Source: a virus. From it: a stretch of DNA of 64,000 bases. Shown here piece after piece: positions 22,792 to 41,833 of this stretch. The stretch's first letter is position 1. Each line of letters opens with the position of its first letter. The translations under genes and the position numbers were made by a program. Location: positions 1 through 64,000 of IMG/VR virus record IMGVR_UViG_3300036668_000172; one strand, written 5' to 3'. The notes beneath the pieces were generated by a model that searched no databases, was not told the DNA's origin, and saw only the letters and a list, made by a program, of their open reading frames with translations.

Positions 22792-22849
22792 CGATAAAGC
22801 CCACCCTGCTGGGAGGAGGGCGGGAACCAGCAGAGTGGGCAGTTTATCG
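22792..22849 (-). ncRNA. Long hairpin (terminator or sRNA) with a 14-nt anti-SD-like loop
   Basis: CGATAAA-CT-GCCCACTCTGCTGG / CCAGCAGGGTGGGC-TTTATCG with loop UUCCCGCCCUCCUC; the U-G pair works only on the minus strand. Confidence 0.55.
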
Positions 22850-29935: not shown

Positions 29936-30769
29936 CTATTTTTGATACGGGTTCTTCCCCATCTTTGCTGCGGGGTTCTTTCCTCTATTAGCGCTTGGAT
30001 TTTTGGCAGATGACACACGCTTCTGAGAGCTTGTAGACACGTAGTTAGCTGTTCTAATCTTACGGTCTCCTACCTGTATAGACCTAGTCCTACCAACTAC
30101 AGATGCGCTTGACGCAGTCCTAGCTACTCGGTAAACCTGCCTCTGCAATTCAACAGGGACTTCTGACAGGTCTGCAGGGCCGTGAGGGTATCCCAACAGT
30201 ACGCCGTCGGAACCTTGGAACTGGTTCTTCCTGTTCAGCATTGGGCCTTTAGAGATAGAGCTTTTAAAGGTCTGCCAAGTTCCTGGAGGCACGTTGTAGT
30301 AATTGTAGAAGGTTCCATCGCGGAAGACAACGGTTAGTTTACCGCGTTGGTCTGCGTATGGCTTTGCCCTCTCACCTACATAGAGGTAGTAGCCAGCAGC
30401 TAAGGTCCTTGGACGAGAAGCATTGCTCGTCGAAGTTGGTATGTTTAAGTTTTCTGGATTAACAGGGGTTAAGCGGTCACCAAAGAAGTTGGTCTCTTCA
30501 TCAAAGACGTCCATCCCATATGCTGATGAGTCATTCCCATTAAATACTTGCCCACCATAGTTAGGGTCTTCACGGTATGCATCTGCTTGAAACTCTGAGT
30601 AACGGTCTCTAATCGGCTTGCCAGTAGCGGGGTCAACTTGAGTTTGCCCATCTATTTGACGAACTGGGTTTGTAGTGGGTAGCTGGCTCAGCCTAGGGAC
30701 TACATAGTCCCCCGTAATTTCCGTAAGGCGATTACGTAGTTGATTACGTAGTTCTTTATCGGCAGCCAT
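29936..30769 (-). CDS. KTSC-domain protein (leaderless)
   Basis: LTVVFRDGTFYNYYNVP...FKSSISKG; -10 TATACT 6 nt before the ATG. Confidence 0.7.
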   Translation of the reverse strand: MAADKELRNQLRNRLTEITGDYVVPRLSQLPTTNPVRQIDGQTQVDPATGKPIRDRYSEFQADAYREDPNYGGQVFNGNDSSAYGMDVFDEETNFFGDRLTPVNPENLNIPTSTSNASRPRTLAAGYYLYVGERAKPYADQRGKLTVVFRDGTFYNYYNVPPGTWQTFKSSISKGPMLNRKNQFQGSDGVLLGYPHGPADLSEVPVELQRQVYRVARTASSASVVGRTRSIQVGDRKIRTANYVSTSSQKRVSSAKNPSANRGKNPAAKMGKNPYQK

Positions 30770-30782
30770 GACCCCAGTATAA

Positions 30783-30822
30783 AGTTAACCCCCGCCCATG
30801 TAAGTATGAGCGGGGGTTAACT
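30783..30822 (-). terminator. Intrinsic terminator
   Basis: 17-bp stem AGTTAACCCCCGCTCAT/ATGGGCGGGGGTTAACT, continuing into a short T run. Confidence 0.7.
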
Positions 30823-30833
30823 ATTACTTTTGC

Positions 30834-31478
30834 TTAGCTAGCGTAGTAAGGGGTGATGGTGATTGCGTCACCTTCAATTACACCATTGGCAGCTGGTGCG
30901 ACGCTCTGGGTGACAATCTTGCCAGCCTTAGCGACGACCTTGGCGGTGCCAGTATCTGGGTCACTTGCAACGTCAGCATTGGTCTTAGCAAATACCAAGG
31001 TAGAACCAGTGGTTCCAGTAATCAGCGTGAAAGTACCGTTGAATACAACGTTAGTCAGGCCAGCGATGACTACTGAGTCACCAACTGCAAAGCCGTGGGC
31101 TGCTGCAGTAGTTAGGGTAGCTACGTTGCTGGTTAGAGCTACATTGCTAACTGCTGGGGTGTAAGCAGCTGCGGTAGTGATGTCGGCGGTCAAGTAACCA
31201 GCGTCAATCAAAGACCGACGTGCAGCCGCGACTGTAAGTCCAAGTACGCTAGGTACAAGGAGGTTGCCTAGACCTTCACCTGGATAGTTAGGGGTATATA
31301 GAGGGAACCCATTCCAACCAGAAATCATCAATGCGTGATTATCTAGGTCTGGGTCCAGCAGCTCTCCGCCGTTCTCAAGACGAACGTCGTTGGGCTGAGG
31401 GGGCAGGTTGCCCCATACATGGTCTATGACAACGTTTCCAGCGTCATCAACAAGATTACCATTTTCGTTTGTTGCCAT
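30834..31478 (-). CDS. PASTA-domain protein with an inserted beta domain
   Basis: VPSVLGLTVAAARRSLIDAG ... GKIVTQSVAP...GDAITIT flank TAAAHGFAVGDSVVIAG..FNGTF. Confidence 0.6.
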   Translation of the reverse strand: MATNENGNLVDDAGNVVIDHVWGNLPPQPNDVRLENGGELLDPDLDNHALMISGWNGFPLYTPNYPGEGLGNLLVPSVLGLTVAAARRSLIDAGYLTADITTAAAYTPAVSNVALTSNVATLTTAAAHGFAVGDSVVIAGLTNVVFNGTFTLITGTTGSTLVFAKTNADVASDPDTGTAKVVAKAGKIVTQSVAPAANGVIEGDAITITPYYAS

Positions 31479-35161: not shown

Positions 35162-35235
35162 CTCCCCTTCCTGGACTTGAACCAAGAACCTACGAGTTAA
35201 CAGCTCGCCGCTCTGCCGAATTGAGCTAAAGGGGA
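35162..35235 (-). tRNA. tRNA-Asn(GTT), CCA not encoded
   Basis: TCCCCTT-TA-GCTC-AATTCGGCA-GAGC-G-GCGAG-CTGTTAA-CTCGT-AGGTT-CTTGG-TTCAAGT-CCAGG-AAGGGGA-G. Confidence 0.95.
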
Positions 35236-35524: not shown

Positions 35525-35596
35525 GGGCTGTAGAGGAGTTGCACCTCTCATGTGGTCAGAAAGGAAGTAAAGACCCCACACGGCTCTCGTCAGCCC
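35525..35596 (-). ncRNA. tRNA-like RNA with an anti-SD-like loop in place of the anticodon
   Basis: Acceptor-like GGGCTG/CAGCCC, no D stem, central stem GTGT-GG-GGTC/GACC-ACAT with loop UUUACUUCCUUUCU, T arm AGAGG-TGCAACT-CCTCT. Confidence 0.65.
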
Positions 35597-38800: not shown

Positions 38801-39054
38801 TGTTCCATTGTCCGCCTTTTGCGGACTCTCTGCAGGGTGAATTTTTTCGATAGAAGTCTTTTTTTCACTTCTCGTGTCAAAAGGATAACGTTATCGGGAT
38901 ACTTTTGACATTTGGCAAATCTAGCCTAAAAACGCCCTCGTAGAACGGCGGCTAACGGACTTTGACGATGCACCACGGGTGATTGCATCAAAACAAAGAT
39001 AAAAGCCCCCAGATTGTCTCTGAAGGCTTATTACGGCTATGTGGTTACTTTCGG

Positions 39055-39382: not shown

Positions 39383-40157
39383 CTATTCGGCTGGAGCGGA
39401 CTTGACAGGGTTAGTTTTAAGGTGCTTGGTGTACTCACCAGCGGCTGTTTCGTTCAGTGGACTGCTGCTGCCACCAGAGGTCATACCCATTGGGCTAATC
39501 ACTTTGCTAAGCATCGGACGACCTTTGCCAGTCGCAATGTAGTCACCGTGCTTCTGAGCTGCTCCTTCGGAGCTGTGCATGGTGTCGGTTACAGCAGGGT
39601 CTGACATTTGAAGTCTGTAAGAACCATCGTGAAGACTAGTGTGGTCTCCCTGCTTACGGCTTGGGTGTTCTGCTCTGTTAGGTACGTCCATTTTTCTTTC
39701 CTAGCAATCTTTGAACTGAGTGGAGTTAAGAGCTCCGTGCTTTTCAGCCTTGCGGTCCTTGCGGAGTAGCATGCCGCCGCCGACTGCTCCTACGACTGCC
39801 CCTACTCCAGCAGCCATTAAGGCGTTTGCTGGGGATGCTCCATCGTGAGCTCCCATAGATGCGCCTGCCATGGCTCCCATAACTGCTGAGCCTGTTGGAA
39901 GAGCATCTACCATCTTATATTTTTTCATAATTAGATTCTCCCACGCAATTGTATTTTTCTCTCAGTAACCATTATTTCTTATTCGACGTACGAGGAACTT
40001 TTTTCTCCAAGGCGGCATTACCGTTCACGCTGGAGGCTTCCTTGGTTACTTCGCCTGATGTCTGAGCAAGATTGGCTCTTAGGTAGTCTCCGCCTTTGAT
40101 GCCACGAGGGCCACCAAACATGCCCTTGGCAATGTTGGGACTGAGATTACGATTCAT
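39383..40157 (-). CDS. Three small hypothetical proteins (39383-39691; 39701-39928, glycine-zipper-like; 39972-40157, leaderless)
   Basis: ORF track; -10 TGT-CATACT 6 nt before 40157. Confidence 0.55.
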
Positions 40158-40208
40158 GCTCCCAGTATGACATAGCTACAGGGGCGATTTAAGGCTAAAA
40201 ATGATAAG

Positions 40209-40291
40209 GGTGACCCCCTGGTAGAACTGTCCGTAGATGAAAAGGGGGTAACAACTACGGCTCGGCCAGGGGGCCACCTGAGTAGATAGTA
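40209..40291 (-). ncRNA. Stand-alone small RNA with its own promoter and an anti-SD-like loop
   Basis: Extended -10 TGC-TACTAT (hexamer 40286-40291); 13-bp stem GGTGGCCCCCTGG/CCAGGGGGTCACC; inner stem CCGTAG/CTACGG; loop UUACCCCCUUUU. Confidence 0.6.
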
Positions 40292-40317
40292 GCACATGCC
40301 ATGGCTACAGGGGCGTT

Positions 40318-40485
40318 TTAAGACAACCCGTGCATGTGGTTCCAGATAGCAATCATGTAGACCTCTGCGTCCTCTGGGTCATCATACTTCTTAGCCAGTT
40401 CTTCAATGGCGGCGATTAAAGCTGCCTCTGGCAGGTGGGTGACATAGTGCCAAAGCTGCACCAAGTCATCGTCTATAAACTTCAT
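40318..40485 (-). CDS. Hypothetical protein (55 aa, leaderless)
   Basis: MKFIDDDLVQLWHYVTHLPEAALIAAIEELAKKY...; perfect TATAAT 6 nt before the ATG. Confidence 0.6.
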   Translation of the reverse strand: MKFIDDDLVQLWHYVTHLPEAALIAAIEELAKKYDDPEDAEVYMIAIWNHMHGLS

Positions 40486-40759
40486 AACAGTATTATAAGG
40501 CTACTGGGGCGTTTTATACATAGAATCGGTAGGCCGCAGCCGAGTCGGCTCCATTCGGGCCTTTTCGAGTGTCTTTGGGGGGTCAAACCTGCACATTCCG
40601 CAATTTAATGCCCAGTAATCAACCGATACCGAAGGATACGGGGGCATTTTAGGGACAAAATGGGCTACTGCCTCACTTTCAAGGTCATCAAGCGGGTGTG
40701 AGACCTGGCATGACCTGCTGGAATTCTGCGGTTACCCTGCTGGCGTGCAATAATCCACT

Positions 40760-40919
40760 TATCGCCACCACGCCGAACAGGTGCGGCGCGCACTCACTCG
40801 CTTACTTACGGGCGGTTATCGCTACTAGGTGTATGAATTATGTTCTTGCGCTTACTAGTGGTAATCGCCACTTAGCCCGCTGTCACTATGGGCTATCACG
40901 CTAAGTAAAGGAATAACTA
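40760..40919 (+). promoter_or_regulatory. Structured 5' leader of the first plus-strand gene
   Basis: 14-bp G-U-rich stem GGCGGTTATCGCTA/TAGTGGTAATCGCC; TTACTTA/TAAGTAA abuts the RBS. Confidence 0.5.
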
Positions 40920-41363
40920 ATGAACGCTGTATCTATCCCGACACGCTCAACCGATACACCATCAACCATCATTGACGCTACCGACAACGCTCTACGGGGC
41001 GCTATTGGTAACGTGTTCGTCGATGCTGTATTTCAGGCTCACGCTCAGGACGAGTTGGCTTTTAGGGTCGCTGTAAAGGCGGCAACTAAGGCGCAAATAA
41101 AGGCTGATGCCGATGCTATCAAGTATGCCAATGCAGAACTACTCAAGGCAGACTTGCAAGACAATGGCTCAACTGTTCTGGGTATCGCCGTATCATACGA
41201 GGAACTACTCCACCTAGCCACCGTTGGTGTCAAGGCATGGTATGACCTACCCGAGGGTAACATCATCGCCCGTCTAGTAAGCGACGTCACCGTAGCCCTA
41301 GCTGGGGCGCAGTCTCGTGAGGCAAATGCGCTCAAGAGCGCTATCGCCGAGCTACAAGGCTAA
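40920..41363 (+). CDS. Hypothetical Ala-rich protein, first gene of the plus-strand block
   Basis: RBS AAAGGA, AACTAATG start context. Confidence 0.7.
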   Translation: MNAVSIPTRSTDTPSTIIDATDNALRGAIGNVFVDAVFQAHAQDELAFRVAVKAATKAQIKADADAIKYANAELLKADLQDNGSTVLGIAVSYEELLHLATVGVKAWYDLPEGNIIARLVSDVTVALAGAQSREANALKSAIAELQG

Positions 41364-41364
41364 T

Positions 41365-41548
41365 CAGGCTACTGTATCCCCGTAAGCAAGCCCGTCTCCG
41401 AGTATGACCAGACTATACAGGCACTTCACGCCTTGTTATCAGGTACTACAAGGGGACGGGCTTACTTATTACAGGCTTGTATACCTATACGGTTAGCTAG
41501 GTTCTTGGTTCCTAGCTAGCCTTATAGATAGACAATCCGTTTATCTAG
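41365..41548 (+). ncRNA. Intergenic structured RNA (about 115-nt irregular hairpin plus two hairpins)
   Basis: TAAGCAAGCCCGTCTCC/GGGGACGGGCTTACTTA; GGTTAGCTAGG/CCTAGCTAGCC; TAGATAGAC/GTTTATCTA; G-U pairs favour the plus strand. Confidence 0.55.
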
Positions 41549-41573
41549 CCCAACATACATACAGGAGGACCTA

Positions 41574-41756
41574 ATGGGTCGCAAGAACAGTAAGGCACGA
41601 GAGAAGCCACAACCAGAGAGCACAGTAGCTATGGTTGCTAGGCTCAACAAGCAGAACACCGTCTACAAGGCACACAAGAGAGAAGAAGCGTTCTCTATGT
41701 CTCTCTCTATAGGTTCTCGTATACCTGAATCTATCTCTAAGTCCCTTCGTAAGTAA
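41574..41756 (+). CDS. Small basic protein
   Basis: RBS AGGAGG. Confidence 0.6.
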   Translation: MGRKNSKAREKPQPESTVAMVARLNKQNTVYKAHKREEAFSMSLSIGSRIPESISKSLRK

Positions 41757-41758
41757 CT

Positions 41759-41799
41759 TAGGGGGGCAAAGCCCCCCTATAACCCCCCGACTACGGGGG
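41759..41799. other. Two tandem G/C-run hairpins
   Basis: TAGGGGGGC-AAA-GCCCCCCTA and CCCCCG-ACTA-CGGGGG. Confidence 0.6.
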
Positions 41800-41833
41800 C
41801 GTTCTAAGGTAAGCCCTAATGAAAGGAAAGCTA

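What the first reader, a model, noticed from the sequence alone, without database searches (positions are those of the whole stretch)
40209..40294. Free-standing sRNA gene related to the tRNA-like RNA
An extended -10 puts the TSS at 40279, one base before a 13-bp closing stem with a minus-strand G-U pair. The inner arm GAG-CCGUAG...UUACCCCCUUUU...CUACGG parallels the central arm at 35550-35585, and a U-rich tail follows. No credible ORF is present.
Basis: partly seen in the sequence, partly recalled or inferred. Interest (0 to 1): 0.75.

Follow-up and report, generated by a model that had tools for sequence, protein, structure and literature searches.

The report
Conserved small hairpin RNA in phage
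An uncultured salt-lake phage carries a short non-coding stretch that folds into a strong, evolutionarily preserved RNA hairpin with a pyrimidine-rich loop and probably its own promoter, so it is most likely a small phage RNA, though no transcript has been seen and its job is unknown.

Summary
On the minus strand, 40278-40209 forms a 70-nt hairpin: a 13-bp closing stem, an inner arm and an open loop UUACCCCCUUUU (MFE -40.1, z -4.2).

Two related IMG/VR phage records keep it as a single copy. All 7 stem substitutions preserve pairing. Two are compensatory and three give G-U only on the minus strand.

Against a neutral identity of 62.5%, the 25 nt upstream (TGcTACTAT extended -10) are 23/25 identical and the loop 13/14. 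The overlapping 47-aa ORF is not coding.

A more distant relative has the same upstream gene but no hairpin unit. Two other relatives carry TTGACA-16-TAnnAT promoters ending 8-9 nt before similar hairpins with CCUCCUUUCU loops.

A free-standing small RNA is therefore the best reading (about 0.5). A terminator or insulator hairpin is the main rival.

Homology to the tRNA-like RNA at 35525-35596 is not supported. Only the loop style is shared. No RNA data exist and no target was found.

This scan's earlier AI notes describe similar phage "anti-Shine-Dalgarno hairpin" RNAs on other DNA.

The parts
40303..40321 (-). Copy 2 of the promoter-type repeat, TTAAAACGCCCCTGTAGCC. Its TAA is the stop codon of the upstream 55-aa gene.
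   Evidence: five minus-strand copies lie between 40174 and 41804, against 0.44 expected, and 0 of 100 shuffles reach 5. In G002 the G+C-rich core of this copy is degenerate (CGCCCC to CCTCCT) while TTAAAA is kept.
40279..40302 (-). Conserved spacer holding the extended -10 (TG 40294-40293, TACTAT 40291-40286) and the inferred start A at 40279.
   Evidence: The sequence is shown. The stretch 40303-40279 is 23 of 25 identical to G002, against a neutral identity of 62.5% (P about 0.001). The spacing of hexamer, 6 nt, then start matches the neighbouring leaderless genes.
40266..40278 (-). 5' arm of the 13-bp closing stem, GGUGGCCCCCUGG.
   Evidence: One C-G to U-A compensatory change occurs in G002. 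G001 loses one G and leaves a bulged U.
40222..40265 (-). Inner part: internal loops, helix GAG/UUC, helix CCGUAG-U-UG/CA-U-CUACGG, and the apical loop.
   Evidence: The inner helix has 1 compensatory pair and 3 one-sided changes, all giving G-U on the minus strand. The non-loop inner positions are 17 of 30 identical, about the neutral rate.
40240..40251 (-). Unpaired apical loop UUACCCCCUUUU (UUAUCCCCUUUU in G002).
   Evidence: It is unpaired in both the MFE and the centroid structure. The stretch 40253-40240 is 13 of 14 identical to G002, P = 0.013 against the neutral rate.
40209..40221 (-). 3' arm of the closing stem, CCAGGGGGUCACC.
40195..40208 (-). Tail CUUAUCAUUUUUAG, the possible 3' end or terminator tail.
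   Evidence: It is 12 of 14 identical to G002. The U-run is displaced from the stem, so it does not meet the terminator scan's rule.
40174..40192 (-). Copy 1 of the promoter-type repeat (TTAAATCGCCCCTGTAGCT), which starts the next unit. TGtCATACT, then 6 nt, then the ATG of the 61-aa gene at 40157.
   Evidence: In G002 the same repeat is followed by different genes. In run X13, contigs depart from the window below 40162.
40318..40485 (-). Upstream neighbour: a real 55-aa protein gene, apparently leaderless (TATAAT, then 6 nt, then ATG).
   Evidence: Of 29 differences to G002, 21 are at third codon positions. Homologues are P0001 and P0002 and a 39%-identical copy in L086.

Best explanation
The element is a small non-coding transcription unit of a phage early region.

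Inferred steps:
- Host RNA polymerase starts at about A40279 from an extended -10 promoter (TGcTACTAT).
- It transcribes a 70-nt hairpin and ends in or just after the tail CUUAUCAUUUUU, giving an RNA of roughly 75-85 nt.

Shown by comparison:
- The hairpin is the selected object: pairing, loop and upstream 25 nt are all preserved.
- The stretch is not a protein gene.

Inferred function: the stable stem holds out a 12-14-nt C/U-rich loop as the working part. The loop most likely pairs with a G-rich, Shine-Dalgarno-like single-stranded site of a host (or phage) mRNA. This is how the C-rich loops of the actinobacterial 6C sRNA act without a chaperone (PMC6486639, passages read). The same hairpin would also stop read-through from the 55-aa gene.
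For: - Fold: -40.1 kcal/mol, z -4.24, 0 of 200 shuffles as good. In all 3 sequences the minus-strand RNA folds 2.5-5.7 kcal/mol better than the plus strand.
- Copy number: single copy in each of 3 of 3 close records, namely own, G001 and G002.
- Pairing: 24 pairs, 70 of 71 cells paired. Two pairs changed on both sides and three on one side, all to G-U on the minus strand.
- Conservation against a neutral identity of 62.5% (third codon positions of the neighbouring gene): upstream 25 nt 23/25 (P 0.001), closing stem 24/26, loop 13/14 (P 0.013). The inner unpaired and variable part is 17/30, about neutral.
- ORF47: differences spread 8/10/9 over the codon positions, 16 non-synonymous against 5 synonymous codons, and the frame is broken in G001.
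- Modularity: relative L086 keeps the 55-aa gene homologue but goes straight to the next promoter repeat without the hairpin. G002 and run X13 have other genes after the next repeat.
- Promoter rule: neighbouring genes and genes in relatives show -10 hexamer, 6 nt, then ATG/GTG. The same rule puts +1 at 40279.
- Analogues: L088 and L089 have TTGACA-16-TAACAT/TAGTAT promoters (10 of 12 consensus matches). These end 9 and 8 nt before 12-13-bp hairpins with 15-16-nt loops containing CCUCCUUUCU.
Against: - No transcript evidence: no RNA run holds the region, so the start, the end and the RNA's existence are all inferred.
- Only three sequences exist, and two are nearly identical. The shuffle control is weak: 57 of 500 shuffles reach the observed covariation.
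- The consensus promoter scan finds no -35/-10 pair here, and the terminator scan does not accept the hairpin.
- The repeat copy upstream has a 24-nt gap between TTAAAA and TACTAT, so it cannot supply a -35.
- No convincing target exists in the phage. The best loop complements are a 10-mer inside a coding region and spurious ORFs, and start regions score like background: -8.4 against -7.9 kcal/mol.
- The phage's ribosome-binding sites read AAGGAG/GAAAGGAA, which would put an A opposite the central C of the loop.
- The model finds nothing in 0 of 5 more distant relatives.
Confidence: 0.5

Rival explanations
1. The hairpin is a terminator or insulator and has no life of its own. It ends the transcript of the 55-aa gene so that the next, leaderless gene starts from its own promoter. 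Hairpin plus following promoter repeat would form a composite terminator-promoter cassette, like the PeSLs of T4-type phages, which also mark points of gene exchange (PMC4122927, abstract read; PMC2839356, search listing only).
For: - The hairpin lies 40 nt after the stop of the 55-aa gene, directly before a promoter repeat, and is followed by a U-run.
- Gene content changes exactly at the repeats.
- Other strong hairpins of this phage sit between genes. One at 30783-30822 lies before TATACT, 6 nt, ATG. One at 22799-22840 has z -7.47.
Against: - A terminator needs neither a conserved 14-nt loop nor a conserved 25-nt upstream stretch carrying an extended -10.
- The U-run is 8 nt away from the stem, and the scan rejects it.
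- The hairpin is single-copy, not a repeated cassette part.
- L086 has no terminator between the same two kinds of unit.
Confidence: 0.28
2. The hairpin is an RNA processing or stability element within a longer early transcript. It could be an RNase III-type cleavage site or a 5'-terminal protective hairpin for a read-through mRNA of the 61-aa gene block.
For: About 22 stacked pairs interrupted by internal loops resemble phage RNase III sites (recalled knowledge of T7 early RNA). The hairpin would begin 1 nt from the inferred 5' end.
Against: The downstream genes have their own promoter repeat and start 6 nt after a -10 hexamer without a usable Shine-Dalgarno spacing. Read-through RNA would therefore translate them poorly. 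Loop conservation is left unexplained.
Confidence: 0.1
3. The hairpin is a paralogue of the tRNA-like RNA at 35525-35596, that is, its central arm duplicated and set free.
For: Both have GAGCCGU at the foot of the arm in the window. The loops are UUACCCCCUUUU and UUUACUUCCUUUCU. Both are kept in G001 and G002.
Against: - Model R1 gives no hit on 35525-35596 at E <= 10 with filters off.
- GAGCCGU is not kept in G002 in either RNA.
- Given two pyrimidine loops, 9 of 12 matches is not unusual (my estimate, about 0.07).
Confidence: 0.1
4. The element works at the DNA level, as a cruciform or protein-binding site of an origin or packaging region set among iteron-like repeats.
For: It is an inverted repeat inside a cluster of seven 19-bp repeats at a strand-switch region.
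Against: All three one-sided substitutions and both fixed wobble pairs are G-U on the minus strand, which are A-C mismatches in DNA and on the plus strand. The repeats behave as promoters with a fixed distance to start codons.
Confidence: 0.04
5. The element is a small protein gene: the 47-aa ORF at 40154..40297 on the minus strand.
For: The ORF is open in the window and in G002 and ends at the ATG of the next gene.
Against: - The frame is broken in G001 by a 1-nt loss and a 2-nt gain.
- There are 16 non-synonymous against 5 synonymous codon changes, with no third-position bias.
- There is no ribosome-binding site, and the ORF runs through the next promoter.
- No PHROG or Pfam family matches (for this ORF; one search covers the neighbours only).
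Confidence: 0.03

Closest known systems
6C sRNA of Actinobacteria (Rfam RF01066; Mai et al. 2019, PMC6486639, passages read)
   Same: A stable hairpin presents a run of C in an open loop. In 6C such loops pair with G-rich ribosome-binding regions (for example AGGGGGG of panD) without Hfq or ProQ. The likely host phylum is the same: the nearest cultured terminase is Streptomyces phage BRock at 51%.
   Different: There is one hairpin with five C flanked by U, not two or three loops of six C. It is phage-encoded. There is no Rfam match at the gathering score or at E <= 10. No target is known.
Short promoter-to-terminator phage RNAs such as lambda OOP, P22 sar and P1/P7 c4 (recalled; c4 is Rfam RF01695)
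   Same: A 70-90-nt RNA made from its own promoter in an early or regulatory region and ending at a hairpin.
   Different: Those act as antisense to an overlapping or nearby phage message. Here nothing is encoded opposite and no phage complement was found. There is no Rfam hit.
PeSL composite terminator/promoter cassettes of T4-type phages (PMC4122927, abstract read; PMC2839356, search listing only)
   Same: A stem-loop is followed by an early promoter in a variable early region, and gene gain and loss occur at these boundaries.
   Different: The promoter part is repeated, but the hairpin is unique in the genome. It also has its own -10 in front and a conserved loop.
Promoter-driven hairpins with CCUCCUUUCU loops in related phage records (L088 3289-3250 and L089 951-911, minus strand), and the tRNA-like RNA at window 35525-35596
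   Same: The phage group is the same (ATPase 44-46% identical). The geometry of -10 hexamer, 8-9 nt, then a 12-13-bp stem is shared. All have a large pyrimidine loop, and all lie on the strand opposite the ATPase gene.
   Different: Those loops carry the exact CCUCC core of the 16S rRNA tail (recalled), whereas this loop has CCCCC. No sequence or model similarity was found, and no shared neighbours. Orthology cannot be claimed.

Membership tests
Any Rfam 15 family (includes tRNA, tmRNA, 6C RF01066 and c4 RF01695) | A covariance-model match at the family's gathering score. | tested here: not met
   In the whole window only tRNA-Asn at 35162-35235 passes. Over 40150-40340 at E <= 10 there are four chance-level hits (miRNA and lncRNA models at 11-16 bits, against cut-offs of 41-100).
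6C sRNA | Two or more hairpin loops, each with a run of about six C. | tested here: not met
   There is one apical loop with five C (four in G002).
Intrinsic (rho-independent) terminator | A G+C-rich stem. | tested here: met
   A 13-bp closing stem with 10 G-C pairs.
Intrinsic (rho-independent) terminator | A short loop and a U-tract beginning within 0-2 nt of the stem. | tested here: not met
   The stem encloses 44 nt. The five U start 9 nt after the stem. The scan lists only a small alternative hairpin at 40219-40206, which is not kept in G002.
tRNA-like / tmRNA-like RNA (as at 35525-35596) | An acceptor stem plus a T-arm, or similarity to that RNA. | tested here: not met
   ARAGORN finds only tRNA-Asn. 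R1 with filters off does not hit 35525-35596. The shared 7-mer is not conserved.
Free-standing bacterial/phage sRNA gene | Non-coding, with structure kept by selection. | tested here: met
Free-standing bacterial/phage sRNA gene | Its own promoter. | tested here: inconclusive
   An extended -10 is present and conserved (23/25), with the same spacing rule as the neighbouring genes. There is no -35, and the consensus scan makes no call. No activity data exist.
Free-standing bacterial/phage sRNA gene | A discrete transcript of the predicted size. | not testable with these tools
   No RNA run is listed among 23 holders.
PeSL-like terminator-promoter cassette | A stem-loop directly followed by an early promoter, with indels at its borders. 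| tested here: met
PeSL-like terminator-promoter cassette | The whole cassette, stem-loop included, is repeated through the variable region. | tested here: not met
   R1 finds one sense-strand copy per genome. Only the promoter repeat is multi-copy.

The most novel reading that the evidence does not exclude
This phage group makes a set of promoter-driven hairpin RNAs whose large loops copy, exactly or loosely, the mRNA-binding tail of 16S rRNA:
- CCUCCUUUCU in L088 and L089
- CUUCCUUUCU in the tRNA-like RNA
- CCCCCUUUUC here

They would act as sponges or masks for Shine-Dalgarno or G-rich start sites. This would depress host translation that depends on such sites, while the phage's early genes, which appear to be leaderless, escape.
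Probability: 0.1. Interest if true: 0.8.

Novelty: new member of a known kind. Interest (0 to 1): 0.42.

Why it matters
Few small RNAs are known from phages of Actinobacteria or from uncultured environmental phages. This one can be stated precisely, with start, stem, loop and tail, and comes with a built-in comparison of three natural variants.

If the RNA is made, its conserved C/U loop gives a direct handle for finding a target by loop mutation or pull-down. Together with the CCUCC-loop hairpins in related phages, it would test whether phages with leaderless early genes use RNA to interfere with start-site recognition.

If it is only a terminator, it still documents how promoter repeats mark the borders of exchangeable one-gene units in this phage group.

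Tried and rejected
Expression. The look-up of sequencing runs listed 23 DNA-type holders and no RNA holder. Nothing can be said about transcription.

More relatives:
- Loop pattern in viral contigs: 37 stretches. 2 of the 37 are the known records G001 and G002, and 35 are unrelated.
- Loop-plus-stem pattern in metagenome contigs: 31 stretches, 0 homologous.
- Stem-plus-tail pattern: 10 stretches. 2 are known and 8 are short generic hairpins.
- Promoter-spacer pattern: 2 of 2 are the known records.
- Protein-alignment search for the 55-aa gene: 3 loci, all already known.
- The search for homologous proteins: 2 proteins.
- Model R1: 0 of 5 distant relatives at E <= 10.
- The pattern for the L088/L089 hairpin type found only those two.
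- blastn against cultured phages: no match, in near or distant mode.

Targets:
- Exact complements of the loop in the 83.7-kb genome. The best are 10-mers at 709 (+) and 74517 (-). The latter lies inside a 333-aa ORF. About 1.6 such matches are expected by chance, by my estimate.
- RNAduplex of the loop against 415 ORF start regions gives a mean of -8.4, against a background of -7.9 kcal/mol. The top hits are spurious small ORFs.
- Phage ribosome-binding sites lack G5.

Protein families. There are no PHROG or Pfam hits for the small neighbouring ORFs. The exceptions are weak glycine-zipper/holin-like and zinc-ribbon hits on two of them.

The 135-nt stretch 40516-40651 was folded. Its z-score of -0.06 indicates no stable structure.

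Read laying. Its table of other letters was cut, with 249 rows not shown, so I make no claim that X11 or X13 are identical in the hairpin. X11 contigs stop at 40223 and resume at 40299, which is not interpreted.

Supplements of the papers were not opened.

Full report
**What the window is.** The window is the first 64 kb of an 83,749-base IMG/VR virus record, estimated 87% complete. It carries a portal, a large terminase and capsid genes. The nearest cultured terminase is that of Streptomyces phage BRock at 51% identity, so an actinobacterial host is likely but inferred. Sequencing runs that hold the region are labelled mostly salt-lake metagenomes. The finding lies in a stretch of very small genes where the coding strand switches, around 40-42 kb.

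**The observation.** On the minus strand the sequence reads, in order:
- TTAAAACGCCCCTGTAGCC
- ATGGCATGTGC
- TACTAT
- CTACTC
- A(40279)
- GGUGGCCCCCUGG ... CCAGGGGGUCACC
- CUUAUCAUUUUUAG

RNAfold gives one dominant structure:
- a 13-bp closing stem with one G-U pair;
- a 2-nt internal loop on each side;
- the helix GAG/UUC;
- the helix CCGUAG-U-UG / CA-U-CUACGG;
- a 12-nt open loop UUACCCCCUUUU at 40251-40240.

The energy is -40.1 kcal/mol, z -4.24, and 0 of 200 shuffles fold as well. The plus strand folds less well (z -2.6). The U-run is 8 nt away from the stem. Two ORFs of 47 and 39 aa do overlap the element.

**Relatives.** Searches with the two flanking small proteins found two IMG/VR records.
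- G001 (loci L002/L003) is nearly identical.
- G002 (locus L004) has a 55-aa neighbour protein that is 80% identical.

All further searches added no new record. These were three more DNA patterns in viral contigs, one in metagenome contigs, a protein-alignment search and the large protein database. The comparison therefore rests on three sequences, two of them close.

**Structure conservation.** On the three-way alignment, 24 pairs were counted and 70 of 71 cells pair.
- One closing-stem pair changed C-G to U-A.
- One inner pair changed C-G to U-A.
- Three pairs changed on one side only, each to G-U as read on the minus strand.
- No substitution in the two main helices breaks a pair.
- G001 lost the G of the G-U pair, leaving a bulged U, and gained 2 nt in an internal loop. 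The same variant is seen in contigs of run X4, and the A-to-G change at 40234 in runs X2 and X4.

With three rows the shuffle control is weak (57 of 500). The slid-partner control is clear: 98.6% of cells pair, against 41-54% when partners are slid. In all three sequences the minus-strand RNA is 2.5-5.7 kcal/mol more stable than the plus-strand RNA. This points to an RNA read from the minus strand rather than a DNA cruciform.

**What is constrained.** The neighbouring 55-aa gene is a real gene. Of its 29 differences to G002, 21 fall at third codon positions. This gives a neutral identity of about 62.5%. Against that yardstick:

| Region | Identical to G002 | P |
|---|---|---|
| 25 nt between repeat and hairpin | 23/25 | 0.001 |
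| Closing stem | 24/26 | - |
| Loop | 13/14 | 0.013 |
| Tail | 12/14 | 0.06 |
| Inner non-loop positions | 17/30 | neutral |

A plain terminator does not predict a conserved loop or a conserved upstream stretch. A promoter plus a functional loop does.

**Not coding.** In the 47-aa ORF, differences to G002 fall 8/10/9 over the three codon positions. There are 16 non-synonymous and 5 synonymous codon changes. The G001 indels change the frame after codon 7. No ribosome-binding site precedes the ORF, and it runs through the next promoter repeat.

**The repeat and the promoter question.** The 19-nt repeat occurs five times on the minus strand between 40174 and 41804, against 0.44 expected by chance. 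Two looser plus-strand copies exist. One of them (38933-38947) reads as a small minus-strand terminator.

Relatives with only 44-49% ATPase identity carry the same TAAAACGCCCCTG core. Where a gene follows the repeat, the layout is usually:
- TTAAAA-type hexamer;
- CGCCCC plus about 11 nt;
- TGn plus a TAnnnT-like hexamer;
- exactly 6 nt;
- ATG or GTG.

I read this layout in the window (55-aa and 61-aa genes), in G002 (two genes), in L086 (two), in L089 (two) and in L087 (one). One copy in L090 has a leader with a Shine-Dalgarno site. I therefore read the repeat as a promoter for leaderless messages. That reading is inference.

The copy in front of the hairpin does not fit this layout. Its TTAAAA lies 24 nt from TACTAT, and its G+C core has decayed in G002, while the TGcTACYAT stretch is kept. 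The hairpin's start would thus depend on an extended -10 alone. The consensus promoter scan does not list this site.

**Unit-like behaviour.** L086 (ATPase 68% identical) has a homologue of the 55-aa gene. It is followed at once by a promoter repeat and a homologue of a different window gene, with no hairpin. G002 has two extra genes inserted just after the repeat that follows the hairpin. Two contigs of run X13 depart from the window at the same border. The hairpin with its upstream stretch therefore comes and goes like the one-gene units around it.

**Analogues in related phages.** Model R1 gave a weak hit in L088, which led me to read that sequence. A simple scan for hairpins with pyrimidine loops followed.
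- L088 (minus, 3289-3250): TTGACA-16-TAACAT ends 9 nt before a 12-bp stem. The loop is UUUUUCCUCCUUUCUU, and a U7 run follows.
- L089 (minus, 951-911): TTGACA-16-TAGTAT ends 8 nt before a 13-bp stem. The loop is CUUUCCCUCCUUUCU.

In each case this was the only promoter call in 350 nt, against 0.2-0.3 expected. The folds have z -4.4 and -2.7. The two stems differ in sequence but both begin GCUGGGC, and the loops share CCUCCUUUCU. From memory, that sequence is the 3' tail of 16S rRNA in many Gram-positive bacteria.

These units show that this phage group does place strong promoters directly in front of hairpins with open pyrimidine loops, with the same -10-to-stem distance as in the window (8 nt). 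They share no neighbours with the window's hairpin and no model similarity. They are analogues, not shown orthologues. The L089 copy sits next to a tRNA gene, as does the window's tRNA-like RNA.

**Relation to the tRNA-like RNA.** R1 run over the whole window with filters off gave 16 hits at E <= 10, and none is at 35525-35596. The tRNA-like RNA is kept in G001 and G002. The GAGCCGU shared with the hairpin in the window is AGCGTTTC-type sequence in G002's tRNA-like RNA, and GAGUUGU in G002's hairpin. What remains is a similar loop:
- UUA-C/U-CCCCUUUU in the hairpin;
- UUUA-C/A-UUCCUUUCU in the tRNA-like RNA.

I treat this as a shared functional style, not shown descent.

**Function.** The loop's perfect target would be AAAAGGGGGUAA. 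Nothing in the phage fits beyond chance. The phage's ribosome-binding sites are AAGGAG/GAAAGGAA, which pair with the loop only with a central A-C mismatch.

The best-known parallel is the 6C sRNA of Actinobacteria. Its C-rich loops bind G-rich ribosome-binding regions without a chaperone (PMC6486639, passages read). This RNA is not a 6C family member. A host target is therefore the most likely, and it is untestable here because the host is unknown.

**Verdict.**
- The structure is real, strand-specific and under selection.
- Its most likely nature is a small phage RNA made from its own extended -10 promoter (about 0.5).
- A terminator or insulator role is the main rival (about 0.28), and the two are not exclusive.
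- The homology claim to the tRNA-like RNA is not supported.

Earlier AI notes of this scan describe comparable 'anti-Shine-Dalgarno hairpin' RNAs in other phages. I used them only as a prompt to test loop-to-RBS complementarity, which failed here.

Noticed in passing
window 40174-41806 (minus) and relatives L086, L087, L089, L090: The 19-nt repeat behaves as a promoter for leaderless genes. The layout is a TTAAAA-type hexamer, a G+C-rich CGCCCC spacer, TGn plus a -10 hexamer, exactly 6 nt, then ATG/GTG. The core TAAAACGCCCCTG is kept in phages whose ATPase is only 44-49% identical.
   Followed up: partly
L088 3225-3325 (minus) and L089 895-986 (minus): Consensus-like promoters (TTGACA-16-TAACAT/TAGTAT) end 8-9 nt before 12-13-bp hairpins whose 15-16-nt loops contain CCUCCUUUCU. 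The L088 copy is followed by a U7 run. The L089 copy is followed by a T-arm-like sequence and tRNA-Ser.
   Followed up: partly
window 22799-22840 (minus): A 14-bp hairpin with the loop UUCCCGCCCUCCUC (z -7.47) lies downstream of the capsid gene block. It looks like a late terminator but again shows a C/U loop with CCUCC.
   Followed up: partly
own genome G000 70357-70402 (outside the window, minus strand): A perfect 13-bp stem has a 20-nt loop, CACUCCCUCCUUAUCCAUCC. On the plus strand that loop reads as a Shine-Dalgarno-like AAGGAGGGAG.
   Followed up: no
window 40516-40651 (minus): A 135-nt stretch between two repeat copies has only an implausible 48-aa ORF that starts inside a repeat. It has no significant fold (z -0.06). 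Runs X2, X11 and X13 show many substitutions and indels at 40530-40553.
   Followed up: partly
window 41760-41806 (minus); L087 about 2910, L089 about 7119, L090 about 7116 (minus): One repeat copy is always followed by two G-runs that form a small GGGGGG...CCCCCC hairpin. This composite is kept in distant relatives and may be the main early control region.
   Followed up: no
window 30777-30836: A 13-bp hairpin (GUUAACCCCCGC...) is followed directly by TATACT, 6 nt, then the ATG of the 277-aa gene at 30769. This is another hairpin-plus-leaderless-promoter junction.
   Followed up: no
L084 5611-6480 (record G002): Two extra genes are inserted exactly after the promoter repeat that follows the hairpin, ahead of the 61-aa gene homologue.
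   Followed up: partly
window 40064-40427: One contig of run X13 joins 40064 to 40427. It skips 362 nt that include the hairpin and parts of both neighbouring genes. What lies between is not known.
   Followed up: no
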